Shown piece after piece: positions 1,601 to 52,686 of a stretch of 64,000 nucleotides of DNA. Both the position numbers and the translations under genes were made by a program. This DNA comes from Albugo candida (taxonomy: Eukaryota), in the NCBI GenBank assembly GCA_040437565.1, contig JBDOQK010000005.1, positions 682,001-746,000 of the forward strand, read 5' to 3'. Every line of letters starts with the position of its first letter. Within the stretch, counting starts at the first letter, position 1. The notes beneath the pieces are model-generated. The model had not been told where the DNA came from and ran no database searches. It saw nothing but the letters and a program-made list of their open reading frames with translations.

Positions 1601-3393
1601 CCAATACAACCTCAATCAACAGCATTAATTCAGTAGCTTTATTGTACGCTTCAATCAAATAGTACAAGCAATCCATAGCATGCGTGGACACACACCACCT
1701 AGATTGAACAGATCGCCACAAGAGTTTTACCAACTCGTCTTGAGTATTTTCAATGATTGTCTGCAAATTGTGTACGACATCAACTTCGTAAAGTCTTATT
1801 TCTGCCATCTCAACATATTTCGTTAATCACGTTGATTAACGAATAAGAATCCTGCCTTGATTCTGGCATCTATCGTGGCATAGCTATAACCTACGTTGAT
1901 TAAAAAAAGACAGCTACCGAAGCCAATCACGTACCGACTTCAGCAGGTGTTTTCGAAATATATTTGGAGCATCGAAGAATCTCTTCGCGTTTTCCATCCA
2001 CCGCCACATCCACTGCATGAGTGATATCCAGAGTATGGTCACTTATTGAGATGACGAGCGTGACCGACCCATTGATTGGTCGTCCATGTTAGCGTTTGTT
2101 CGGAGAAACCTTGTAAATCCGTGTATTCAGCAAACAAAGCTTCTGTAAAACAATGAGACGTTTCGTTGCTTTAAATGTGGCTAGCGACACCGTAAATCAC
2201 TCCTTCTCGAGGTTCGTAATAAGAAGATCTAATCTTCGCACTGCTCTCACTTGTGACGATTGAGCCTCTGATGTTTTTTCGCGGAGGAATAAAGGACCTG
2301 AAATATGTAACAAGCACGTGGCACAGCAAATAATTGATTGTTGTTGACAACTTGACTTTGATATCTTTCTTCGCTCGATGGAATTGAGATGCAGCGTGAG
2401 GTCATTTGACATCCTTGTGATTGATGATGATGAGTAAGGTAGAACCTGTTCAATTCAACTGAACAAATGTCAAGCTTGTCCACATCCATTCGCGAGTGAG
2501 TGATTTCATGATTGGATTGCTAAAAGATCGTTTTCATGGTGCTTTCTGTCAGACTTCCATCTAGCCAGAATAACTGGAGGCTGACACAAGTCATGTTTTA
2601 TCACGATTGTTGTTTTTCACAGCTCATTAGTAGGAGCGGGAGTCAGCACTCGTTCATCTTTTCAAATCGGAATTTTCATACATATAAAATAGCGTGAATT
2701 GCAAGATCCATTTATTGCGACAGAAGAAGGAGATACATCATCCCCTATAGAATATCAGTACAGGCCAATACGGCAGCACCCAGCAACTAGAGTCGGACTG
2801 AAAAGAAGGTAATAATAGGCATTTTTTTATTCAGCCGTAAGCGTAATCTTTAGTCCAATGCTACGTTTTCGATGCCGCTGCGGAAATACTCATAATTCAA
2901 ATTCTCGTTTACAGAGGGCTCTTTCTGCCCTGGTAATTTTGTTTTATCTTCGACCAAGATCGTCCCATATAGCGTGTGCACAAATGCACTCACTTTTTGT
3001 GCGTAAAATCTTTTTGATTGATGCTTGAGACTTTTTCGACCAAGGCACCTCGCACCTACTGTTCCAGCTCTTCGGTAATCTATAACACATACTACACTGG
3101 GACTGCAAATGGATCTAGATCCACTGGATGTGGATCTTTTTTTCAGATTCAGATCCATTCAGCAAATGGAACCAACTCTCAGATCCAGCTCCANNNNNNN
3201 NNNNNNNNNNNNNNNNNNNNNNNNNNNNNNNNNNNNNNNNNNNNNNNNNNNNNNNNNNNNNNNNNNNNNNNNNNNNNNNNNNNNNNNNNNNNNTGTGCGT
3301 AAAATCTTTTTGATTGATGCTTGAGACTTTTTCGACCAAGGCACCTCGCACCTACTGTTCCAGCTCTTCGGTAATCTATAACACATACTACAC

Positions 3394-32859: not shown

Positions 32860-35800
32860 TTAGCTGTAATCCTTGGCTTCGAATTTGCTCAGTGAGAAAT
32901 ATGTGACTTTCACAACGTTTCCACCGAACTTGCGCCCGCATAATGCCTAACACAATGATTAGAGATTCAAATTTGATCCAAGTTGATCAGTACTGCGCTT
33001 GGTACTTGCCTTTAGCGCTGCGGTTGCCTCTTTGGTGTCAGAATATCGAACAAAAATGTTTCCAGTACCAGCAACATCTTCCTCATCCTTGTAGCCTTGT
33101 GAGTCACATGCGATCAATTAACATCGGTCAAACGCGTACCTGAGGTCGTGGTATATCGAGAGCAAGAATCGTTCCAAAACGCTTACACTCTTCTTCGACG
33201 TCCTCCTTCAAATCGGCAAATTCCTCGTCGTTCTGAAGCTCATCTTCTGACACCATATTAGCCTACGAGCCGAATAATGAACAAATAGGACAATATTTAT
33301 GCGACGCTATTACCATTTTCAATACGGGTCCAGGATCTTCGCCCGCAGCGCCTGGAAGCAGGACGGCGATCTGTGGATACTTCGTTGCGTCAGGTGCACG
33401 CCGTACACTCAATTTGACACCGCCGATATCAAGCCCATCCAAACCATTCAGGGCATCTATGGTCACTTGATTCTCCTGATATTCNNNNNNNNNNNNNNNN
33501 NNNNNNNNNNNNNNNNNNNNNNNNNNNNNNNNNNNNNNNNNNNNNNNNNNNNNNNNNNNNNNNNNNNNNNNNNNNNNNNNNNNNCCTGGAAGCAGGACGG
33601 CGATCTGTGGATACTTCGTTGCGTCAGGTGCACGCCGTACACTCAATTTGACACCGCCGATATCAAGCCCATCCAAACCATTCAGGGCATCTATGGTCAC
33701 TTGATTCTCCTGATATTCAAAAATGGCGCTTCCTGTTGATTGACCCGTCATGGGATCCTTTATCAGTTTGAAAAAATTAAGTTCTCCAAATGGTTGTACT
33801 AGTTCTTTTACTTGTTCTTCGGCCAGAACGCTGGGAATGTTGGACATCAGCAGCTGTGCGGCGTTTAGGTCTGAGGGAAGCGAGGCCAAAGACTCTGCTA
33901 AAGCAGTTGCAGACATAAGTGAAGACGTCGACGANNNNNNNNNNNNNNNNNNNNNNNNNNNNNNNNNNNNNNNNNNNNNNNNNNNNNNNNNNNNNNNNNN
34001 NNNNNNNNNNNNNNNNNNNNNNNNNNNNNNNNNNTCCAAATGGTTGTACTAGTTCTTTTACTTGTTCTTCGGCCAGAACGCTGGGAATGTTGGACATCAG
34101 TAGCTGTGTGGCGTTTGTGTCTGAGGGAAGCGAGGCCAAAGACTCTGCTAAAGCAGTTGCAGACATAAGTGAAGACGTCGACGAGGACAGATATCCATTG
34201 AGCCCATTTCCAAAAGTGGCTGCAGTCATGGAATCCATTCCCAACGAGGCAACATCAGGAGACGCAAACCAAACTGGATTTGGTGTGCATCCCAGGTTCA
34301 CCAGAGCAGTCTGAGTTCGTGCTGAAACAATGGGCATCGGTTGAGGTGGTCCCATAAAACTTCGTGGTCGTCCAAACTTTAACGGTTGCCCCAAAAGAGG
34401 GAGTTGATTTAGCAAGAGAGCAAGATTACATTCCTCTACTGATCTCATCTCACAAAATGCAAAATGGCCATCCGTTGAAATCCATACACTTAAAATTGGA
34501 TTGCCAGGTTGCGTTGAAAGACCAACTTGCTGGATAATTGTTCCCAAAAATTCTTGCAACTGCGGGCCGGTGATGGTGGCGGGGAGATTCCCAACATACA
34601 ATTCTCGAGCTGGTTTCATGGCCACAGCTGCAGCCATTGTAACATTCGACGCTTGCATTTTTGAGATGATATCCTGCAAACTAAGGGTCGGATATTGCTG
34701 CATGAGCTGTGTGATACTTGGAGTTCCATCACCAGAGACAGGAGGATGCTCGTGTGGTTCCGGAGAGCTATTTGCGTCTCTCTTTTTCTTCCCTTGTTCT
34801 GATTTGGACCGATGGCGCTTCACACGACTCGCGCTACGACTACGACTGCGGCTATCACTACGTCGTTGATGACGACCACGATCCCTACGTCGGCTTCGGG
34901 AGCGTCGTTTAGAGATCGATCTTGATCTTGAGCTATGATGCCGATGACGAACACGTGATGAAATGGAATGGGACTTTCGCCGACCAGCACGTCGACCACG
35001 TCGTGACCTCGAAAACGACCGAGAATGATGACGAGATTTGGATCGGGTTCGGGAGATAGAAGGTGATTGAGAAAGCAATCGGCCGTGTCGAGTTTTTTTT
35101 GGACCCCCTGGTCCTCGTTCATTTCCTGGCTCTCTCTTTTCTTTCGCGCTACTTGATTTATTCGATTGCACCGACTTATTTTCAGCATCGTTCGATTTCG
35201 GTATGCAAACAGCACTTTTCTCATCCTTTGTAACTGGTGCCTCGCGGTTCTGATCGTTTTTTGATGCATCGGATTCCTCCAATGCCTTTCGACTGGGTGT
35301 TTTTTTATTAGTAGAAGGTGGTGACATGTTTGACTTTGGATCAGCTCTTGTTTTAGTTCTACTGCTTGACTTAGATCGTTCTGATTTATGTCGTGCTTTT
35401 CGGATTCTTGAAGCTGAGCTGGAACGATGATTTATTTGAGAGGCATCTGAGTGCGGGGATTGAGAATGGGATCGACGACGGGAGGACTTACGTCTGCTCC
35501 TATTCGCCCGTCGGTCCCGATCTCGACCCCGACCTCTTTCTCCGCGTGTTTGGTCTCGATCGTAAGCTCTTGAACGAGATCTGCGGCTTCGACCGCTTTC
35601 TTTTCGAAACTCGCGAGTTTTGCTCCCACGATCTCGACTAGAGTGCCTCGCTGAGCGCTTTGTTGACGACTGACGGTGATTGAAATCAGACAGCTCACTG
35701 CTGCGATCATAGTCCCGAGATGACCTTTTCTTCCTTTTTTCTGACTTTAAGTGATCTTTTTCATTTCGCTCGCTCTTTTTCCTCTCTTTCTTCTTTTTAT

Positions 35801-35984
35801 CATTCAATTCTCCGTTTCCTGCTCGATCTTTCTCGCCTTCTTGTCGAGAATGATCGCCTTCAAAATCATCGTATTTCTTGCGTTTATTTTTATCCCATCC
35901 AGAGGCGCGCAGCTTCTCTCGAATCGCTCGTTCCTCTGCGTCATTCGTTGCTTCTGAGCCTTGGGAATCTTGATCCCGGGCCAT
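32860..35984 (-). CDS. U2AF2: U2AF large-subunit (U2AF65-like) splicing factor with long RS region, RRM1, RRM2 and UHM
   Basis: RRM1 ARELYVGNLP...FAFCEMRS; RRM2 QVKELVQPFGELNFFKLIKD; UHM LKMANMVSEDEL...EDVEEECKRFG...GNIFVRY...LCGRKFGG. There are three 3' introns and two gap duplications inside the gene. Confidence 0.85.
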
Positions 35985-41329: not shown

Positions 41330-44300
41330 CTAGCGCACCAATTCACGTGATCGTCCTCGTCTGTCGAAAAAACTATTATACACAGATATCATAACGATGA
41401 ATAAAAGTCGATACCCCATGGCACTTACATCTTTATTGGCATAGGCAAGTTCGAATCCATGTATAGATCCACCAACGACTCGATTTCTCAACTTCTCATC
41501 ATCCTTGAGTGTGAATGTGACCAGGCGAGCGTGTGCTCGATACAAATCATTGCTTTCTGTGAAGCGGTCGTATATACATTGCTAAAGAGCACAAATTGGA
41601 GCGAGCCCGTGATGTGTCTGCGAAAAAGTACCTACCTCTATAGCTTTGGCGAGATTCCCGTATTGATCGCCCAAACTCATTGTCAGCATCTCTATTACAC
41701 GTACTCGATACTCGTCCTTTTTTGATTCTTGAGTTAATGCATCGACTTCCCGGTTTCCTTCCAAATTTGTGTCACTCGATTTCAGATGCTCTTTGGAGGC
41801 TCCTGATACTAATTCAGCCTTTCCTGCACTGACAACTGATGCTGTAACAGGTATTTCTTTTGATGTTTGTTTCTGTAATTCACCATTGGTAGCTATCGAA
41901 GCAACTGCGTCAAGAATAGACTCTTTGGATCTAAGTTCCTCCACATGCCGAGAAGAATCTACATTTCTCAAACAAGGAATTGGCGGCTCCAGAGTGGCCT
42001 TGGAAGTAGCCAGCTGCTTCCTTGCATCATCCTGTATGTGAAGTTTGTCACTTTGTCTTGTTGTTTCGTCAAGCTGGTCAGGCTTCCTACTCGTTTTTGT
42101 CATCTCGTCACCGATTTGTTCAGCATCAGTCGTCCCATCAGGCACGACTTTCTCTGCATCTTTCTTACTATCGCCATTTTCAGTCTGTTCTTCCATACTC
42201 TGGCCGATCATTCTCTCTTTCACGTCACTTTTGCCAGCCAAGCTTGAGTCTTGACATTTCATCGTGCTCTGTTTTGACTTACATTTAATATCTTGTACTT
42301 TCAAATCCTTGTTCAAGGAGGCAATAAGATACTTTCGTAGAGACTTGGCTGTTTGTGCCAATGAAGGATTTGTGCTTTTGCGTAGCTTGGAAATAACAGG
42401 TGCAACCCCAGACTTCTCGATATCTACTTTAGTGATTTTCTTGGCTTCGAATACTTTGGAAAGCATAAGTAGCAATTCGTCGTGGTTGGCTGCTTCATCT
42501 TCACTCAGCGAGATCAATCGTTTACCAAAAATGATCCAATCAATGGGATCACTCTCAGTTTCTCTTGCTACCAAAGTGTGTGCAGCAACATCGCTCTTGA
42601 CTTCTTTCTCCTTTATAGCCAGCTTGGTCGAGTCATTGGCTTCTTGCGCATTTTTGAGTTCAAAATCAGACTTTGATTCCGGCGTCTGTGTTGTGGATTG
42701 TGTTTGCTGCGGAGTACCTTTAAGAGTTGCTCCAGGATAATTGGAGGGAGCCTTATCGTTCGCACTATTTGATGGCAGTCTCTCGCTACTTTCATTCACA
42801 TTCTTGTCTTCGACAATACCACACACGAGTTGTGTTTCAACCGGCGATTCCTTTTGTTTCTCAATTTGTTGACCAATTTGTTCCTCATCTCCCACTGAAG
42901 CATTCGGCATAGCTTCATTTTCATTTTTGGGCTTTGGTTCATTCGGCGTAGCTTTGTCATTACTTTTAAATTTTGCTTCAATCGACATAGCTGCTTTATC
43001 ATCAATTTTGGGCTTTGGTTCATTCAGCATAGCTTTGTCATCATTTTCGGGCTTTGGTTCATTCGGCGTAACTTTGTCATTACTTTTGGATTTTGCTTCA
43101 TTCGGCGCAGCTTCATTATCATATGTGGGTTTTGGTATGTTCGCAATAAATTTTTCATCATTCTTTGTATTTGATCCTGCAGGTTTCGGATTCTTGTTCG
43201 TAGGAGTTGATCTACCTTTCTTTTTCTTGGTTTCTACTTGATCTTTAGAGCCCTGCTGTGCGGAAATCGTATTCGCTTTTGCTGTGCGGTTCGTCGCTGT
43301 GCCTGTGTGCTGAAGAGAGCGCATGAATAAGTGGCGATCCGACATAGCAACATACGAGATCGAGACCTCTAAGAAATCAGAAGCACGTTCAATAGCAGGG
43401 CGTTTGTAATCCACCTATCCGAATAAACAGCATTTTTCTTCCAACGTACTCCGGTAAACAAGGCGAGTACATTACATCTGCATCCTCAATAGCGCCCATA
43501 AGTTCTTTTCGCCTCTTTGGCNNNNNNNNNNNNNNNNNNNNNNNNNNNNNNNNNNNNNNNNNNNNNNNNNNNNNNNNNNNNNNNNNNNNNNNNNNNNNNN
43601 NNNNNNNNNNNNNNNNNNNNNCCGACATAGCAACATACGAGATCGAGACCTCTAAGAAATCAGAAGCACGTTCAATAGCAGGGCGTTTGTAATCCACCTA
43701 TCCGAATAAACAGCATTTTTCTTCCAACGTACTCCGGTAAACAAGGCGAGTACATTACATCTGCATCCTCAATAGCGCCCATAAGTTCTTTTCGCCTCTT
43801 TGGCGCTTTTGCAGCCCCAACAGGAAATCCTTCTCGATACTTTTGATTGGTATCCAGCCATTTTTCGACGGATTTGAACGGAACAGGCCCACTATCAAAT
43901 CAGATTGAGGATAATCCTGCTAAAATCTCGCTCACCACGCTGGAATGCACGTACAAGTTACGAGCGCGATAAAAAAAGACCCAATACTTGGACGTCTCAA
44001 AGCTTCTTATCGCTTGCTTTTGCTGTGAACTTGGTAGATGTCTCGGATCGACAACTAAGGCTGGCCAATATGGATATCCTTGCATTTTCGCCCACACAAG
44101 CTGACCGAACCTAAAATAAGTGAATTTTGAGCTCAGGTTCACTTCCCAATGAATGACTCACATATCCTTGATTTCTTGCGGCAACGCAAGAACACGACTA
44201 TGTATATCGGACACTTCTACACTTCCAGCTATCAGTGATGCGGCTGCTATACAAGTGATTACGACAAGAAGATGGTCTTTTCTGTGCTCTATGGGTACCT

Positions 44301-44836: not shown

Positions 44837-45676
44837 ATGACTACGCAACGCGAAGAAGATATCAAGATGATGCTGGCGGCTCAGACGCACATTGGCACCC
44901 GCAATGCCGATTCAAGAATGGAAGAATATCTCTGGTGTCGTCGTAACGATGGTGTTCACATTATCAACATCGCCAAGACCTGGGAAAAGATACAATTGGC
45001 TGCGCGTATTATCGTCACCATTGAGAATCCTGCCGATGTGATTGCCATCTCTGCACGTCCATACGGCCAACGAGCTGTTTTGAAATTCGCTCAGTACATT
45101 GGATGTGCTTCTATCGCCGGTCGATTCACGCCGGGAACCTTTACGAATCAAATCACCAAGCAATTTCGCGAACCTCGTTTGCTGATTATCACGGACACTC
45201 GAACGGACTCACAAGCTGTGCGTGAGTCAGCGTCCGTGAATGTTCCGGTCATCGCTTTTTGTGATTCGGATTCTCCTTTGCAATATGTCGATGTTGCTAT
45301 TCCGTCCAACAACAAAGGCAAAACATCAATTGGTTTGCTCTACTGGTTACTTGCTCGAGAAGTCTTGCGTCTCCGAGGAAAAGTATCACGCGCTGTGCCT
45401 TGGAATGTCGCAGTGGATCTATTCTTATACCGTGATCCGGAAGAACTGAAAAAGGCCGAAGAAGCTCAAGCAATTGCACCAGAAGAAGCTCCAGTGCAGT
45501 CAAGTTGGAGTGAAGCTGCCCCAGAAACTGCAGCGGTAGAAGCACCTACATATTCGTCGGAAACACCTGCAGAATGGAATGCTACCAGTACAACAGAATG
45601 GACAACTACCACTGCTGCTCCAGCAGCCGCAGGATGGGATGCCACCCCAGCTGCTGCAGGTGGAAGTTGGGATTAG
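44837..45676 (+). CDS. RPSA: 40S ribosomal protein SA (uS2)
   Basis: Motifs [32 protein letters not shown] and [10 protein letters not shown]. Intronless, with an acidic Trp-containing tail. Confidence 0.98.
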
Positions 45677-45832: not shown

Positions 45833-48121
45833 CTATTTATCATCCATTCTTCCAGCCTTCTTTGCTCGCAAGTAACGTGACATGTACTCGGATGCACGAT
45901 ACTTTTCTGACCAAAGTATTCGTCCTATCCAGTTGTCACTCCCTCGCCGATTTTGGGCCCGCTTTTGCTCGAGTCGGTGGCCAAGAAGATCCAAGAAACT
46001 TTGGCTATTACGATCCCAATCATAGCGTTCTTTTGAGATTGTAAACCCGTGCTCCTGAGCTCTCTCCCAAAGTTTTTGATTATTGTAATACTTTTGCATC
46101 GCCTCTGCGAAATGCAGCTCATCATCCACGATGGAACCTCCCCAGAGATTTGTGCCGTTCACCGCCAATTCCATGCCTTCTGCACCGATGCAAGTACTGA
46201 TACATGGCGTACCGGCGGCCCAGCTTTCGATTATCTTTCCCTTGATTCCAGCACCAAAACGAAGAGGAGCAATTGTAAGTCGATACTGCTGCAGCGTTTC
46301 AAGAACATCGGTCGCACGTCCAAGTACATGCATTCCACTTGCTGCATCCTCGAGCTTCTTTACTCGATGTGTGTCCGCGTACGCTCCATACACATGGATT
46401 TCCACGGGGTCGTTGGATGAGGGCATTTGGTCGCGAAAAGCAGGCAAAATTCTTTGTTTAAACCAGCTCATCCCGTCATAATTTGGAGCGTGTTTGAAAT
46501 TCCCTATAAACGCGATATGCTTCCGTTCTTTATACCCCGCCACAGAATCTTTAAGAAGCTTTTTTGACTGAAAGTAATCACATCGAGCCAATGCGCTTCC
46601 ACTAATTTGGAACCGTTCTGTCAAGAGCTCTTTTTCTCTGTCGGAAACAAACAACGTCAAATCCGACCGATGAATGGATGCGAGTTCGCGAAGAACCTGT
46701 GATTCCACTGGCTGGATATCTATATGTGGACAAAGTAACTTTTCGAGGTTGTCGACTTGACTTTTCCTGATGAGGTGTTCACGAGCTTTTCGTAGAAAGT
46801 GAAGATCTTGCAAGTCAAGCACACGCAAAGCTTGGGATGCATACTTTTGAGCCTGCCATCCATACATTTCTTCGGCAATAAAACGATCGAGTATGATAAT
46901 GTCTGGAACTGTCTCAAGCAGAATGTTTTCAAATGTTGTGGAATTCGGATCAGCATGAATGCAATTTATCCGACGAGTTTGGATCAGCTCTTCCGTGTGG
47001 TGGTTGAGTTTGCTAGATGATACACATAAAACATCGTATCCACCCCGTTGTAAAATCTCAAGCATGTCGGAGCTACGGACGCCAGCTGCAGAGCTTGAAC
47101 TCTCGGGCCACACTGGACCAGCAAGAATCACTTTTTGCTTGCTTTTAGAAAAGACTTTCATCAGGTCGTTTTCATCCGGTGCGTCTTTTATTACGCTCGA
47201 TTGGATGGTGTGATTTGATCGTTTCATCTCAAGAGGTAGATACCACGACGTAGTCATATTCGCTTTAAGTCGGGCCTCGATATTAAATGGTCCCGGTAAG
47301 CCTTCCGGAAACTTTTGTAGCACGAGCTCCTGAAAGTACGGAATGGGGTCCTTGCTCAGCTGTTTACATATGAACTGGAACCATTTCACTCCATAAGAGA
47401 CATGTTCCTCTTCCTCTTTCACGATAAGTTTCACAATTTCGGCCGAGGGACGGTCTCCCATTGACATCAATTTATGAACTAATCTTTCGCCTGAATCGAG
47501 TCCTCTTGCTTCTTGCACCAGTGGAACGACCGCTAATCTTGCGCCTAAATCATCAGCGGTGTTATTAGCGTGCTCTAACAGAGCTAAATGTGCCGGCAAA
47601 GCTCCATAGTAAGATCCTAATTCTTTCAATCGATTTTGTACCAAGTCAAAATGGCGAGCTTCATCCACAGCAACCTTAAGGAAGTCACGATAGTATTCTT
47701 GAGGTAATCGATAGCTTTTTGGATCGAAGCGAACGATGGTATCCCAATAGTTATCGACAGCTCCGAGCTCAATGTGAGCCAATGCATGCAAAATAGCGAT
47801 CGGTACAGTTGTGTTCCAGTCTTTGATTGGAGGCATCTCTGTGGGCTTATAGAGACGCGGATAATCCATGTTTCGTGCTGGAAATTCTGGTGGATCCGAG
47901 GACCAATTCGAAAGATCAAACGAAATCTCATCGGCATCCCACTTTTTCTTGCATTCAAATGTCAAACGAACTTTCTGCATTGCATCCGGAGAACGCAATA
48001 CATTCTCACCGTATGCGATAAGTGACTGTATTGTTCTGTTCGGTTGATTAAGTCGACATTTCTTACAAAATGTTTGGCAGCGAAATACCTCATTTTTCAG
48101 ATGACGAATTTGACGAAGCAT
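45833..48121 (-). CDS. Fusion of a DUF455 ferritin-like di-iron domain and a GT-B (GT4-like) glycosyltransferase
   Basis: N-half LHALAHIELGAVD, DEARHF, VPLVQEARGLD, EEEEHVSYGVKWF. C-half VWPESSSSAAGVR, DRFIAEE, DLQDLHFLRKAR, FIGNFKHAPNYDG, APLRFGAGIKGK...GTPCISTCIGAEG. Single 762-aa intronless ORF. Confidence 0.85.
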   Translation of the reverse strand: MLRQIRHLKNEVFRCQTFCKKCRLNQPNRTIQSLIAYGENVLRSPDAMQKVRLTFECKKKWDADEISFDLSNWSSDPPEFPARNMDYPRLYKPTEMPPIKDWNTTVPIAILHALAHIELGAVDNYWDTIVRFDPKSYRLPQEYYRDFLKVAVDEARHFDLVQNRLKELGSYYGALPAHLALLEHANNTADDLGARLAVVPLVQEARGLDSGERLVHKLMSMGDRPSAEIVKLIVKEEEEHVSYGVKWFQFICKQLSKDPIPYFQELVLQKFPEGLPGPFNIEARLKANMTTSWYLPLEMKRSNHTIQSSVIKDAPDENDLMKVFSKSKQKVILAGPVWPESSSSAAGVRSSDMLEILQRGGYDVLCVSSSKLNHHTEELIQTRRINCIHADPNSTTFENILLETVPDIIILDRFIAEEMYGWQAQKYASQALRVLDLQDLHFLRKAREHLIRKSQVDNLEKLLCPHIDIQPVESQVLRELASIHRSDLTLFVSDREKELLTERFQISGSALARCDYFQSKKLLKDSVAGYKERKHIAFIGNFKHAPNYDGMSWFKQRILPAFRDQMPSSNDPVEIHVYGAYADTHRVKKLEDAASGMHVLGRATDVLETLQQYRLTIAPLRFGAGIKGKIIESWAAGTPCISTCIGAEGMELAVNGTNLWGGSIVDDELHFAEAMQKYYNNQKLWERAQEHGFTISKERYDWDRNSQSFLDLLGHRLEQKRAQNRRGSDNWIGRILWSEKYRASEYMSRYLRAKKAGRMDDK

Positions 48122-50988: not shown

Positions 50989-52686
50989 ATGGATGCAGGA
51001 AATGGCGCTAATGTTGTGGAAGTGGATGCATATCTGCGTGTTGATTGGTACAGAGGTCACAACATTGGATTGGATTGGTCAAAATGCAATTGCGTTGATA
51101 GTAAAAAGCCGATGAATTTGCAGCAATCGATCGCACTTGTTGACCGATGTTTGGTCACTCTATGTAGCGATCTCCCGGACTCACTCGGATTGAATGATAC
51201 ACCTCGTGATCGACTTAGTCTTTCTGCTCTTCGAAAAATTCCATTATTACACAACTTGCGAGAAAACTCGAGAAAGCATGCAATGATTTTAGACTGGATG
51301 CAAACGTTTGTTCCAAAAGAAGACCAAGCACTGAGTAGTGATATCCGAGTAGAGGAAGCGGAAAATGATATAACGGAGAATGATATTGATAGCGATGATG
51401 TGCCGGAAGGGAAAGCGAATGGTGTTGGTGAAGAAAAGCAAAAAGAGAGCGATAAAGCGGTAGCTAAAACAATTGACATTTCAGATAGCGACGATGAGTT
51501 CCAAAATGGAAACAATGATGACAAGATAGCAGCTCATTCGAGTAGGGATAAATCTTCGATCCTTGATAGTCAAAGAAAGGCACAAAAACGAAAATTACAT
51601 TCCATAAAGTCTACAAACAAGTCGTCAACTTTACCGTCTATGGAACAGATATTATCGCCTGAGATAGAGGGGGATAATGCAGAAGAGAATGCAGAAGATA
51701 AAAGTGATGAATTTTACATCGATGATCCAGATGTNNNNNNNNNNNNNNNNNNNNNNNNNNNNNNNNNNNNNNNNNNNNNNNNNNNNNNNNNNNNNNNNNN
51801 NNNNNNNNNNNNNNNNNNNNNNNNNNNNNNNNNNTTATTACACAACTTGCGAGAAAACTCGAGAAAGCATGCAATGATTTTAGACTGGATGCAAACGTTT
51901 GTTCCAAAAGAAGACCAAGCACTGAGTAGTGATATCCGAGTAGAGGAAGCGGAAAATGATATAACGGAGAATGATATTGATAGCGATGATGTGCCGGAAG
52001 GGAAAGCGAATGGTGTTGGTGAAGAAAAGCAAAAAGAGAGCGATAAAGCGGTAGCTAAAACAATTGACATTTCAGATAGCGACGATGAGTTCCAAAATGG
52101 AAACAATGATGACAAGATAGCAGCTCATTCGAGTAGGGATAAATCTTCGATCCTTGATAGTCAAAGAAAGGCACAAAAACGAAAATTACATTCCATAAAG
52201 TCTACAAACAAGTCGTCAACTTTACCGTCTATGGAACAGATATTATCGCCTGAGATAGAGGGGGATAATGCAGAAGAGAATGCAGAAGATAAAAGTGATG
52301 AATTTTACATCGATGATCCAGATGTCTACGAAGTCGAGCGCATACTAGATAAACGATCGAGTCATCGTTCCGGCAAGTCGGTCAAGTATCTCATCAAATG
52401 GGTGGGTTACGAGGAGCCAACATGGGAACCAGCAGAAAATATCTCTAAAGATCTGATCAGAGAATTTGAAAAGAATTATGTTCCACGTGATGAGTATATC
52501 GTGGATAAAATACTCGATCGGAAGGCTGAAGTGAATGAAAAAACCGGATTACAAACATACTTTTATCTTGTCAAGTGGGTCGGGTATCAGGACGATACGT
52601 GGGAGCCTGCAGACAATTTACCGCACAATTTACGGCGTAAATTTGATCTAAAATGCTCGATTAGGAAGCGCGTGCGTCTTGATTAA
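50989..52686 (+). CDS. Protein with two C-terminal tandem chromodomains (~368 aa after collapsing the 591-nt gap duplication)
   Basis: YEVERILDKR...YLIKWVGYEEPTWEPAENI and YIVDKILDRK...YLVKWVGYQDDTWEPADNL, with a basic C-terminus RKRVRLD. Confidence 0.88.
   Translation: MDAGNGANVVEVDAYLRVDWYRGHNIGLDWSKCNCVDSKKPMNLQQSIALVDRCLVTLCSDLPDSLGLNDTPRDRLSLSALRKIPLLHNLRENSRKHAMILDWMQTFVPKEDQALSSDIRVEEAENDITENDIDSDDVPEGKANGVGEEKQKESDKAVAKTIDISDSDDEFQNGNNDDKIAAHSSRDKSSILDSQRKAQKRKLHSIKSTNKSSTLPSMEQILSPEIEGDNAEENAEDKSDEFYIDDPDXXXXXXXXXXXXXXXXXXXXXXXXXXXXXXXXXXLLHNLRENSRKHAMILDWMQTFVPKEDQALSSDIRVEEAENDITENDIDSDDVPEGKANGVGEEKQKESDKAVAKTIDISDSDDEFQNGNNDDKIAAHSSRDKSSILDSQRKAQKRKLHSIKSTNKSSTLPSMEQILSPEIEGDNAEENAEDKSDEFYIDDPDVYEVERILDKRSSHRSGKSVKYLIKWVGYEEPTWEPAENISKDLIREFEKNYVPRDEYIVDKILDRKAEVNEKTGLQTYFYLVKWVGYQDDTWEPADNLPHNLRRKFDLKCSIRKRVRLD

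What the first reader, a model, noticed from the sequence alone, without database searches (positions are those of the whole stretch)
45833..48121. Di-iron DUF455 domain fused to a bacterial-style glycosyltransferase: candidate oxidise-then-glycosylate enzyme
Seen: one intronless, gap-free ORF. The N-half has a complete ferritin-like ligand set (HIE, DEARH, QEARG, EEEH). The C-half is a GT-B domain with the VWPE..SSAAG.R start and PLRFGAGIKGK nucleotide-sugar motif. The N-terminus is short and basic, like a mitochondrial presequence. Known: ferritin-like carboxylate di-iron proteins such as MiaE hydroxylate substrates; hydroxylase/GT pairs act sequentially in base J and Skp1 modification; DUF455 has no established function. 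Inference: the fusion links two uncharacterised families into one modification pathway, perhaps in mitochondria and perhaps of bacterial origin.
Basis: partly seen in the sequence, partly recalled or inferred. Interest (0 to 1): 0.75.

Follow-up and report, generated by a model that had tools for sequence, protein, structure and literature searches.

The report
Di-iron oxidase fused to a glycosyltransferase
A white-rust oomycete gene encodes one protein that joins an iron-dependent, oxygen-using enzyme domain of unknown function to a bacterial-type sugar-transferring domain, probably sent to mitochondria; the fusion is real and conserved, but what it modifies is still unknown.

Summary
Window 45833-48121 (-) is one uninterrupted 762-codon ORF. 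It is identical to a public Albugo candida protein that is named only as a DUF455 family protein.

- **DUF455 half:** residues 44-294 match Pfam DUF455 (E 1.3e-77). The E / ExxH / E / ExxH ligand set is invariant in 88-89 of 89 aligned sequences.
- **GT half:** residues 331-762 form a GT-B glycosyltransferase (Glyco_trans_1_4). Its predicted fold is closest to retaining GT4 enzymes (MshA, SPS, BshA, GlgM).
- **Distribution:** the fusion is kept in 12 named oomycete genera. It also occurs in Paulinella and four other eukaryotic sequences.
- **N-terminus:** it is Arg-rich and poor in acidic residues in 28 of 35 fused proteins, as in a mitochondrial presequence.
- **Redox role:** a second fusion, Rieske ferredoxin + DUF455, occurs in echinoderms, a bryozoan and fungi. 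This argues that DUF455 is a redox enzyme.

The evidence against a general pathway link comes from bacteria. None of 80 loci holding the GT ortholog has a DUF455 gene within 10 kb. The two halves also have different bacterial affinities: Alphaproteobacteria for DUF455, Gammaproteobacteria and Bacteroidota for the GT.

"Oxidise then glycosylate" is therefore the best reading but is not shown. The specific likeness to MiaE is not supported. No paper in the searched library gives either family a function.

The parts
45833..48121 (-). Whole ORF, 762 codons plus the stop codon at 45833-45835
   Evidence: It is identical to a public Albugo candida protein (cluster holds CCI41322.1 / A0A024G441).
48026..48121 (-). 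N-terminal extension, residues 1-32; basic and presequence-like
   Evidence: It carries 8 K+R and 1 D+E. AlphaFold gives pLDDT <50 for residues 1-25. Equivalent Arg-rich extensions occur in 28 of 35 fused proteins; the bacterial-type rows shown begin close to the first conserved helix. That it acts in targeting is inferred; no predictor was run.
47240..47992 (-). DUF455 ferritin-like domain, residues 44-294
   Evidence: Pfam PF04305, E 1.3e-77. The AlphaFold model has long helices at 106-131, 141-167, 192-220 and 224-255, one for each ligand motif.
47768..47788 (-). Helix-1 motif HALAHIE (H112, H116, E118)
   Evidence: H116 and E118 are 89/89; H112 is 86/89.
47651..47662 (-). Helix-2 ExxH motif EARH (E154, H157)
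   Evidence: Both residues are 89/89.
47510..47512 (-). Helix-3 carboxylate E204, within QEARG
   Evidence: Conserved in 88/89.
47402..47413 (-). Helix-4 ExxH motif EEEH (E237, H240)
   Evidence: E237 is 88/88 and H240 is 89/89.
47132..47239 (-). Inter-domain linker, residues 295-330
   Evidence: AlphaFold gives pLDDT <50 for residues 301-311. The stretch from R284 to E340 that spans it ranges from 30 to 93 residues among the 35 fused proteins, and the linker part of it is poorly conserved.
45836..47131 (-). GT-B glycosyltransferase domain with C-terminal helices, residues 331-762
   Evidence: It is 35-40% identical to 400-440-aa bacterial proteins over its whole length. Foldseek matches retaining GT4 enzymes at E about 1e-10.
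47075..47110 (-). N-terminal GT motif WPESSSSAAGVR (W338-R349)
   Evidence: W338 83/85, P339 86/86, S343 and S344 84/86, A345 and A346 85/86, G347 84/85, R349 85/85.
46079..46522 (-). Pfam Glyco_trans_1_4 match, residues 534-681
   Evidence: E 4.6e-18.
46235..46267 (-). Motif PLRFGAGIKGK (P619-K629) in the nucleotide-sugar-binding half
   Evidence: P619 87/87, R621 87/88, G623 88/88, G625, K627, G628 and K629 all 85/85.

Best explanation
This is a nuclear Albugo candida gene for a soluble, two-domain enzyme that is probably imported into mitochondria.

- **N-terminal domain.** The DUF455 domain is a ferritin-like four-helix bundle carrying a di-iron-type site (E118, E154-x-x-H157, E204, E237-x-x-H240). 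It most likely activates O2, using electrons from a ferredoxin-type donor, to oxidise a substrate; hydroxylation is the most probable reaction.
- **C-terminal domain.** This is a GT4-like, probably retaining, GT-B glycosyltransferase. It transfers a sugar from a nucleotide sugar to the same molecule, most simply to the new hydroxyl.
- **Substrate.** It is unknown. Both domains have many invariant Arg/Lys residues, and the GT's nearest folds use phosphorylated or carboxylate acceptors. An anionic metabolite, or a nucleic acid, is therefore my guess.

Shown: the fusion, both folds, conservation of both sets of catalytic-type residues, and the distribution. Inferred: metal identity, redox chemistry, order of the two steps, a shared substrate, and localisation.
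For: **The fusion is real and under selection.**
- 46 of the 120 listed relatives carry PF04305 + PF13692. The named ones cover 12 oomycete genera at 45-57% identity.
- Fused forms also occur in Paulinella micropora, in one sequence named like a transcript assembly, and in three unnamed eukaryote-like sequences.
- No listed relative with a eukaryotic name carries the GT alone, apart from partial or split models.

**Both halves look catalytically competent.**
- The ligand set and 30+ other DUF455 residues are at least 95% conserved.
- 60+ GT residues are conserved at the same level, including W338-R349 and P619-K629.
- AlphaFold gives pLDDT 91.3 for the full protein, and each ligand motif lies on its own long helix.
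- The GT fold matches MshA, SPS, BshA and GlgM at E about 1e-10, TM (target) 0.64-0.75.

**DUF455 is likely redox-active.** 12 of 101 long DUF455 proteins carry a Rieske [2Fe-2S] domain. In all 5 that I scanned, the Rieske domain lies N-terminal to DUF455. From my own knowledge, Rieske ferredoxins deliver electrons to di-iron hydroxylases such as toluene 4-monooxygenase.

**Mitochondria.**
- 28 of 35 fused proteins have an N-terminal extension with 4-9 K+R and 0-4 D+E whose sequence is not conserved.
- All eukaryotic DUF455 proteins sit on one side of a starred branch (98*).
- The 14 named bacterial proteins among the best 120 DUF455 hits are 12 Alphaproteobacteria and 2 unclassified Pseudomonadota.
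- The strongest 19-residue hydropathy window is 1.43, so no membrane segment is evident.
Against: **In bacteria the two families are not linked.**
- 0 of 80 loci with the GT ortholog have DUF455 within +-10 kb (best tblastn E 0.49; the GT control found 80/80).
- 0 of 4 annotated DUF455 contexts have a GT.
- The 14 GT-bearing and 17 DUF455-bearing plasmid or chromid records share none.
- 0 of the 80 GT loci are alphaproteobacterial.
- The bacterial GT therefore works without an adjacent DUF455, and its acceptor hydroxyl need not come from DUF455.

**DUF455 does not need the GT.** It stands alone in many eukaryotes (cryptophyte, Amoebozoa, ichthyosporean, green plants) and is fused to Rieske in others.

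**The di-iron fold does not by itself mean catalysis.** Fold matches for DUF455 are weak and generic (best E 7.7e-3; bacterioferritin, R2lox, aldehyde-deformylating oxygenase).

**The linker is flexible and variable**, and no interface between the domains could be tested.

**No targeting predictor was available.** The Albugo N-terminus itself is poor in Ser/Thr/Ala (6%).
Confidence: 0.4

Rival explanations
1. The two domains act in the same pathway but not as "hydroxylate, then glycosylate that hydroxyl". The GT may act first and the di-iron domain then oxidises the glycoside, or the two domains may modify different positions of one macromolecule or metabolite.
For: The fusion is conserved. 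The bacterial GT family works with no DUF455 nearby, so it already has an acceptor group. DUF455 works without the GT in most eukaryotes.
Against: Nothing I found speaks directly against it. It is simply less economical than a sequential reaction on a single atom.
Confidence: 0.25
2. The two activities are functionally unrelated. A laterally acquired bacterial GT gained mitochondrial import, or expression, by fusing behind a resident mitochondrial DUF455 gene, and the two share only a presequence and a compartment.
For: The two halves have different bacterial affinities. No bacterial neighbourhood links them. The linker is long, variable and disordered. The eukaryotic GT halves fall on one side of a branch (SH-aLRT 89), and the DUF455 halves sit within a eukaryotic clade (98*).
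Against: The fusion is retained across all 12 named oomycete genera and in distant eukaryotes (Paulinella). No listed relative with a eukaryotic name carries a free-standing GT. A single clade of fused DUF455 halves is not rejected (AU p 0.098).
Confidence: 0.2
3. The DUF455 domain is not an oxygenase. It is an iron-binding, ferroxidase-like or redox/O2-sensing module that regulates or stabilises the GT.
For: The best fold matches are bacterioferritins and Dps-like proteins. Pfam gives weak Ferritin and Rubrerythrin hits in a few members.
Against: The domain spans about 250 residues with extra helices. It has many invariant residues that are not ligands (K50, R83, R131, Y172, T188, R195, R206, D209, W247, R284), as expected of a substrate pocket. 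Recurrent Rieske-ferredoxin fusions point to electron delivery. Longer fold alignments are to R2lox and aldehyde-deformylating oxygenase.
Confidence: 0.1
4. It is a gene-model or assembly artefact: two adjacent genes read as one, or bacterial contamination.
For: Albugo laibachii and Phytophthora capsici have separate DUF455 and GT models.
Against: The reading frame is continuous here and in 46 of the 120 listed relatives. The A. laibachii GT model begins inside the conserved DUF455 C-terminal tail, so that split is an annotation cut. One fused sequence has the name format of a transcript assembly. The neighbours are ordinary eukaryotic genes: uS2, BRCT, chromodomain and Vps8-like.
Confidence: 0.02

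Closest known systems
Pfam DUF455 (PF04305), including H. influenzae HI_0077 and plant/fungal "DUF455 family" proteins
   Same: The N-terminal half is a full-length member (261 bits, profile positions 2-246 of 247) with the family's invariant residues.
   Different: Most members are 260-350-aa stand-alone proteins. Here a GT is attached. No function is published for the family in the library searched.
Substrate-oxidising ferritin-like di-iron enzymes (MiaE, aldehyde-deformylating oxygenase, R2lox, RNR R2)
   Same: A four-helix bundle with E / ExxH / E / ExxH on four long helices. There are weak fold matches to R2lox 4ac8 and to aldehyde-deformylating oxygenase 5k53 and 4kvq.
   Different: All matches are weak (E >= 7.7e-3, TM (query) <= 0.40). 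MiaE is absent from the 50 listed. The window protein gives no MiaE Pfam hit. DUF455 is a separate family, not a member of any of these.
Retaining GT4 glycosyltransferases with small anionic acceptors (MshA 3c4q, sucrose-phosphate synthase 6kih/2r60, BshA 6n1x/3mbo/5d00, GlgM 6tvp)
   Same: GT-B fold with TM (target) 0.64-0.75 and E about 1e-10. The profile search hits 2r60 and 5d00 in the nucleotide-sugar half. The acceptor-side domain is rich in invariant Arg (R349, R413, R433, R444, R447, R478, R485).
   Different: Identity is only 12-14%. Other GT4 enzymes (PglA, PimA, WaaG, HepE) score almost as well, so acceptor type cannot be read from the ranking. Relative to the classic E-x7-E motif (recalled, aligned by eye), the first position is A624 (85/86 Ala) and the second is E632 (77 Asp, 8 Glu of 85).
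NCBIfam TIGR03087 (stp1, PEP-CTERM/XrtA-system glycosyltransferase)
   Same: It is the best NCBIfam match, covering residues 484-713.
   Different: It scores 81.7 bits against a cut-off of 316.65, so the protein is not a member. No exopolysaccharide-type neighbourhood turned up among the neighbours scanned for 14 of the 80 bacterial loci.
Bifunctional or paired hydroxylase + glycosyltransferase systems (collagen LH3/PLOD3 and mimivirus L230; JBP + JGT for base J; PhyA + Gnt1 for Skp1). Recalled, not tested here.
   Same: The logic is an oxygenase that creates a hydroxyl and a GT that then decorates it. In LH3 and L230 both activities are on one polypeptide.
   Different: Those oxygenases are Fe(II)/2-oxoglutarate enzymes, and their GTs belong to other folds or families. 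Here the oxygenase candidate is a ferritin-like di-iron protein and the GT is GT4-like. I know of no characterised example of that pairing.

Membership tests
DUF455 (PF04305) | Profile match above Pfam's gathering score over the full model | tested here: met
   261.1 bits against a cut-off of 34.3; profile positions 2-246 of 247.
Ferritin-like di-iron carboxylate superfamily | E / ExxH / E / ExxH ligand set carried on four helices of one bundle | tested here: met
   E118, E154/H157, E204 and E237/H240 are invariant in 88-89 of 89 sequences. They lie on helices 106-131, 141-167, 192-220 and 224-255. Fold matches are to ferritin-like proteins only.
Ferritin-like di-iron carboxylate superfamily | Two bound Fe (or Mn/Fe) ions and reactivity with O2 | not testable with these tools
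   This needs metal analysis and spectroscopy of purified protein.
MiaE tRNA hydroxylase (PF06175) | Profile match to the MiaE family, or close fold match to a solved MiaE | tested here: not met
   The window protein has no hit at E<=1. 3 of 28 relatives hit at E>=0.059. MiaE is not among the 50 fold matches listed.
GT4-type GT-B glycosyltransferases (Pfam Glyco_trans_1_4, PF13692) | Profile match above cut-off and a two-Rossmann GT-B fold | tested here: met
   66.3 bits against a cut-off of 27. Foldseek E about 1e-10 to MshA, BshA, SPS, PimA and WaaG.
GT4-type GT-B glycosyltransferases | Retaining stereochemistry and use of a nucleotide-sugar donor | not testable with these tools
   Inferred only, from likeness to retaining GT4 enzymes and the conserved P619-K629 and E648.
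TIGR03087 PEP-CTERM/XrtA glycosyltransferase | Score above NCBIfam's cut-off | tested here: not met
   81.7 bits against 316.65.
Mitochondrial matrix proteins with a cleavable presequence | N-terminal extension that is Arg-rich, poor in acidic residues and absent from bacterial homologs | tested here: inconclusive
   28 of 35 fused proteins have such an extension (4-9 K+R, 0-4 D+E). No predictor or localisation data were available. The Albugo extension is atypically poor in Ser/Thr/Ala.
Functionally coupled gene pair (Rosetta-stone expectation) | The two families are neighbours or co-occur in prokaryotes | tested here: not met
   0 of 80 GT loci have DUF455 within 10 kb. 0 of 4 DUF455 contexts have a GT. 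Co-occurrence across whole genomes could not be tested.

The most novel reading that the evidence does not exclude
DUF455 is an O2-dependent, ferredoxin-fed hydroxylase of mitochondrial origin that acts on an anionic mitochondrial metabolite or on mitochondrial RNA/DNA. In oomycetes and a few other protists its product is then glycosylated inside the organelle by a captured bacterial GT4 enzyme. That would be a hydroxylation-coupled glycosylation pathway in the mitochondrial matrix. It would use a di-iron/GT4 enzyme pair for which I know no characterised precedent.
Probability: 0.2. Interest if true: 0.75.

Novelty: new variant of a known kind. Interest (0 to 1): 0.5.

Why it matters
DUF455 is a widespread family with no known function. 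It occurs in Alpha- and Betaproteobacteria, Haemophilus, plants, green algae, fungi, amoebae, echinoderms and oomycetes.

Two independent fusions now give testable handles. The Rieske fusion says "redox enzyme fed by a ferredoxin". The GT fusion says "its substrate or product carries, or receives, a sugar".

The GT half has no free-standing counterpart with a eukaryotic name among the relatives listed. If the enzyme proves essential, it would be an oomycete-specific activity in a group that contains important plant and fish pathogens.

A glycosyltransferase in the mitochondrial matrix would be unusual in its own right.

The gene and its domain architecture are already visible in public databases, however, and the substrate remains unknown.

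Tried and rejected
- **Bacterial neighbourhood link:** none found. 0 of 80 GT loci have DUF455. No neighbour is shared widely; the largest neighbour cluster covers 13 of 80 loci.
- **DUF455 contexts from the plasmid collection:** four were viewed (Sinorhizobium: peroxiredoxin upstream; Azospirillum: cysQ upstream; Thioclava; Ralstonia). They share no theme.
- **PDB by sequence:** only 2r60 and 5d00 match the GT C-terminal half. Nothing credible matches DUF455; the MCM7 hit at E 0.01 was taken as chance.
- **ESM Atlas for the GT half:** it returned only generic \"glycosyltransferase\" clusters.
- **Literature (4 searches):** terms were DUF455, PF04305, COG2833, At1g06240 and IPR007402; ferritin-like + glycosyltransferase + fusion + oomycete; and HI0077, NCU11050 and Mfla_0898. 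In the 10 papers where I read the matching passages there were only list entries, or hits to other DUFs and to strain names. Supplements were not opened.
- **Other fusions of the GT family:** of 13 longer relatives scanned, one carries a GNAT domain and the rest carry no extra Pfam domain.
- **Single or multiple origin of the fusion:** unresolved. The free tree needs 4 changes, starred branches force only 1, and the AU test gives p 0.098.
- **Contamination or two-gene artefact:** rejected.
Full report
**What is there**

Window 45833-48121, minus strand, is one open reading frame of 762 codons. It starts at the first ATG after an in-frame stop that lies 42 codons upstream. The exact protein is in public collections. 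Its 90% cluster holds CCI41322.1 / UniProt A0A024G441, "DUF455 family protein", of Albugo candida. The window is therefore A. candida nuclear DNA and the fused gene model is already public.

The neighbours are ordinary eukaryotic genes: ribosomal protein uS2 at 44837-45676 (+), a BRCT ORF, a chromodomain ORF and a Vps8-like ORF. This rules out bacterial contamination.

**Domains**

- Pfam finds DUF455 (PF04305) at residues 44-294 (E 1.3e-77) and Glyco_trans_1_4 (PF13692) at 534-681 (E 4.6e-18).
- The best NCBIfam match is TIGR03087, far below its cut-off (81.7 against 316.65 bits), so the GT is not a member of that family.
- AlphaFold2 on a 139-sequence alignment gives mean pLDDT 91.3 and pTM 0.73. 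Only residues 1-25 and the linker 301-311 are disordered.
- The strongest 19-residue hydropathy window is 1.43, so no membrane segment is evident.

**The di-iron half**

In the 139-row alignment about 89 rows cover this half. H116, E118, E154 and H157 are each 89/89, E204 is 88/89, E237 is 88/88 and H240 is 89/89. The four motifs sit on four separate long helices: 106-131, 141-167, 192-220 and 224-255. This is the classic E / ExxH / E / ExxH arrangement.

Many non-ligand residues are also invariant (K50, R83, R131, Y172, T188, R195, R206, D209, W247, R284). I read this as a substrate pocket rather than a mere iron store.

No solved structure is close:
- A profile search of PDB sequences finds nothing credible.
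- Foldseek with a DUF455-only model (pLDDT 88.8) gives no match at E<=1e-3. It returns only generic ferritin-like folds: bacterioferritin at E 7.7e-3, R2lox, aldehyde-deformylating oxygenase, Dps-like proteins and RNR R2.
It appears only as weak Pfam hits in 3 of 28 relatives, and not in the window protein.

**An independent clue to DUF455 chemistry**

I searched long proteins (419-1334 aa) with the DUF455 region alone and obtained 101 hits. 44 carry the GT and 12 carry a Rieske [2Fe-2S] domain. The Rieske group comprises four echinoderms, a bryozoan, Penicillium chermesinum, three chytrids and three unnamed sequences. In all 5 that I scanned, the Rieske domain is N-terminal to DUF455.

From my own knowledge, Rieske ferredoxins are the electron donors of several di-iron hydroxylases. 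This second fusion therefore argues that DUF455 is a redox enzyme needing an electron supply. One-off fusions to an amidohydrolase and to RibF also exist.

**The glycosyltransferase half**

Residues about 330-755 align over their whole length, at 35-40% identity, with hundreds of stand-alone proteins of 400-440 aa. Those that carry an organism name are bacterial. Conserved features include:
- the N-terminal W-P-E-x2-S-S-A-A-G-x-R loop
- a D-L-H-x-L-R-x2-R helix
- I-G-N-F-x-H-x-P-N-x-D
- P-L-R-F-G-A-G-I-K-G-K
- a C-terminal amphipathic helix

More than 60 positions are at least 95% conserved across eukaryotes and bacteria.

The nearest solved folds are retaining GT4 enzymes: MshA, sucrose-phosphate synthase, BshA and GlgM, followed by PglA, HepE, PimA and WaaG (E 1e-10 to 1e-8, 12-15% identity). 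The first four use phosphorylated or carboxylate acceptors, and the acceptor-side domain here has seven invariant arginines. I treat an anionic acceptor as a lead only, because other GT4 enzymes score nearly as well.

**Distribution and history**

- The fusion is present in 46 of the 120 best relatives listed. The named ones cover Albugo, Globisporangium, Pythium, Phytophthora, Nothophytophthora, Plasmopara, Peronospora, Peronosclerospora, Aphanomyces, Saprolegnia, Achlya and Thraustotheca.
- Outside oomycetes it occurs in Paulinella micropora, in a sequence whose name has the format of a transcript assembly, and in three unnamed sequences.
- Separate models in A. laibachii (AlNc14C1G58 and G59) are an annotation split. 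The G59 protein begins inside the conserved C-terminal tail of DUF455.
- In a quick maximum-likelihood tree the 12 eukaryotic GT halves lie on one side of a branch (SH-aLRT 89), with oomycetes at 100*.
- In the DUF455 tree all eukaryotic sequences, fused and stand-alone, separate from the bacterial ones at 98*. Fused and stand-alone eukaryotic forms are intermixed.
- A single clade of fused forms is not rejected (AU p 0.098).
- The 14 named bacterial proteins among the best 120 DUF455 hits are 12 Alphaproteobacteria and 2 unclassified Pseudomonadota.
- The 80 best bacterial GT loci comprise 41 Gammaproteobacteria, 19 Bacteroidota, 8 Zetaproteobacteria (Mariprofundia), 5 Balneolota, 2 Betaproteobacteria, 2 Bdellovibrionota, 1 Campylobacterota and 2 unplaced. 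None is alphaproteobacterial.

The simplest reading, which is inference, is that an old mitochondrial-type DUF455 gene was joined to a laterally acquired bacterial GT.

**Localisation**

28 of 35 fused proteins start with an extension of 17-72 residues before the first conserved helix. These extensions carry 4-9 K+R (mostly Arg) and 0-4 D+E, and their sequence is not conserved. The bacterial-type DUF455 rows shown begin close to the first conserved helix. Stand-alone eukaryotic DUF455 proteins have similar extensions.

This fits a mitochondrial presequence, but no predictor was available. The Albugo extension itself (8 K+R, 1 D+E, four Cys, few Ser/Thr/Ala) is not a textbook case.

**The test that fails**

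I fetched 80 bacterial loci with the GT ortholog, asking for 10 kb on each side (some contigs are shorter).
- tblastn with the DUF455 half finds none (best E 0.49), while the GT control finds 80/80.
- No neighbour is widely shared. The largest cluster covers 13 of 80 loci.
- Neighbours in 14 of the loci were scanned against Pfam; those with a match are transporters, regulators or NIF3.
- Four annotated DUF455 contexts show no GT and no common theme.
- The 17 plasmid or chromid records with DUF455 and the 14 with the GT do not overlap.

In bacteria each family is thus a lone gene, and the functional link rests on the eukaryotic fusion alone.

**Verdict**

I give about 0.85 that both domains are active, about 0.6 that it is mitochondrial, and 0.4 to the specific "oxidise, then glycosylate the same substrate" mechanism.

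The rivals are:
- same pathway in a different order (0.25)
- co-targeting without coupling (0.2)
- a non-catalytic iron domain (0.1)
- an artefact (0.02)

The closest functional analogies are the bifunctional hydroxylase-glycosyltransferases LH3/PLOD3 and mimivirus L230, recalled from my own knowledge. These use quite different folds, so I rate this a new variant of a known kind.

No paper in the library searched assigns a function to DUF455 or to this fusion. In ten papers I read the matching passages only, and I opened no supplements.

Noticed in passing
Bacterial loci, e.g. L007:8006-11233, L018:9989-12809, L075:9992-12826: A DUF34/NIF3 gene (a family of dinuclear-metal proteins, from my own knowledge) lies beside the bacterial GT ortholog in 18 of 80 loci and in two phyla. 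The arrangement is NIF3 - Zn-ribbon - GT in Aquimarina and other Flavobacteriaceae. It is GT - NIF3 - SAM methyltransferase in Rheinheimera and Alishewanella.
   Followed up: partly
Proteins P0397, P0401, P0411, P0413, P0415, P0423, P0426, P0428, P0434, P0435, P0439, P0446: There are Rieske [2Fe-2S] + DUF455 fusion proteins in echinoderms, a bryozoan, chytrids and Penicillium, named "HI_0077-like" by their sources. They make up 12 of 101 long DUF455 proteins. In the 5 I checked, the Rieske domain is N-terminal.
   Followed up: partly
Protein P0018 (Phytophthora cinnamomi ortholog): Its source names it "putative secreted RxLR effector protein". It is a full-length ortholog of this enzyme, and its N-terminus (MLRVARSVHRRR...) looks like a presequence, not a signal peptide. 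The label is probably wrong.
   Followed up: partly
Proteins P0025 and P0265 (Albugo laibachii AlNc14C1G59 and G58): In the sister species the gene is split into two consecutive models. The GT model starts inside the conserved DUF455 C-terminal tail, so this is an annotation split or a frameshift, not two genes.
   Followed up: partly
L032:8981-12738; L085:5003-8603 (Pseudoalteromonas chromosome II): In Pseudoalteromonas the GT ortholog sits between a LacI-family regulator, whose end overlaps the GT start, and a ThrE-type exporter. The LacI regulator is annotated beside the GT match in 8 of 11 Pseudoalteromonas records. Transporter genes also flank the GT in Marinobacterium, Fodinibius and Bdellovibrionota.
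   Followed up: no
Proteins P0213, P0424, P0440: Three single cases of other fusions were seen: the GT family + a GNAT acetyltransferase, DUF455 + an amidohydrolase, and DUF455 + riboflavin kinase/FAD synthetase.
   Followed up: no
Window 50989-52686 (+); N runs between positions 3194 and 53042: A 565-aa ORF carries a chromodomain. The window holds 1800 N in total, of which 100 lie between 50001 and 50400, just upstream of that ORF. These are assembly gaps.
   Followed up: no
Window 41582-43345 (-) and 33777-35984 (-): Two long ORFs of 587 and 735 aa have no Pfam match at E<=1e-5.
   Followed up: no
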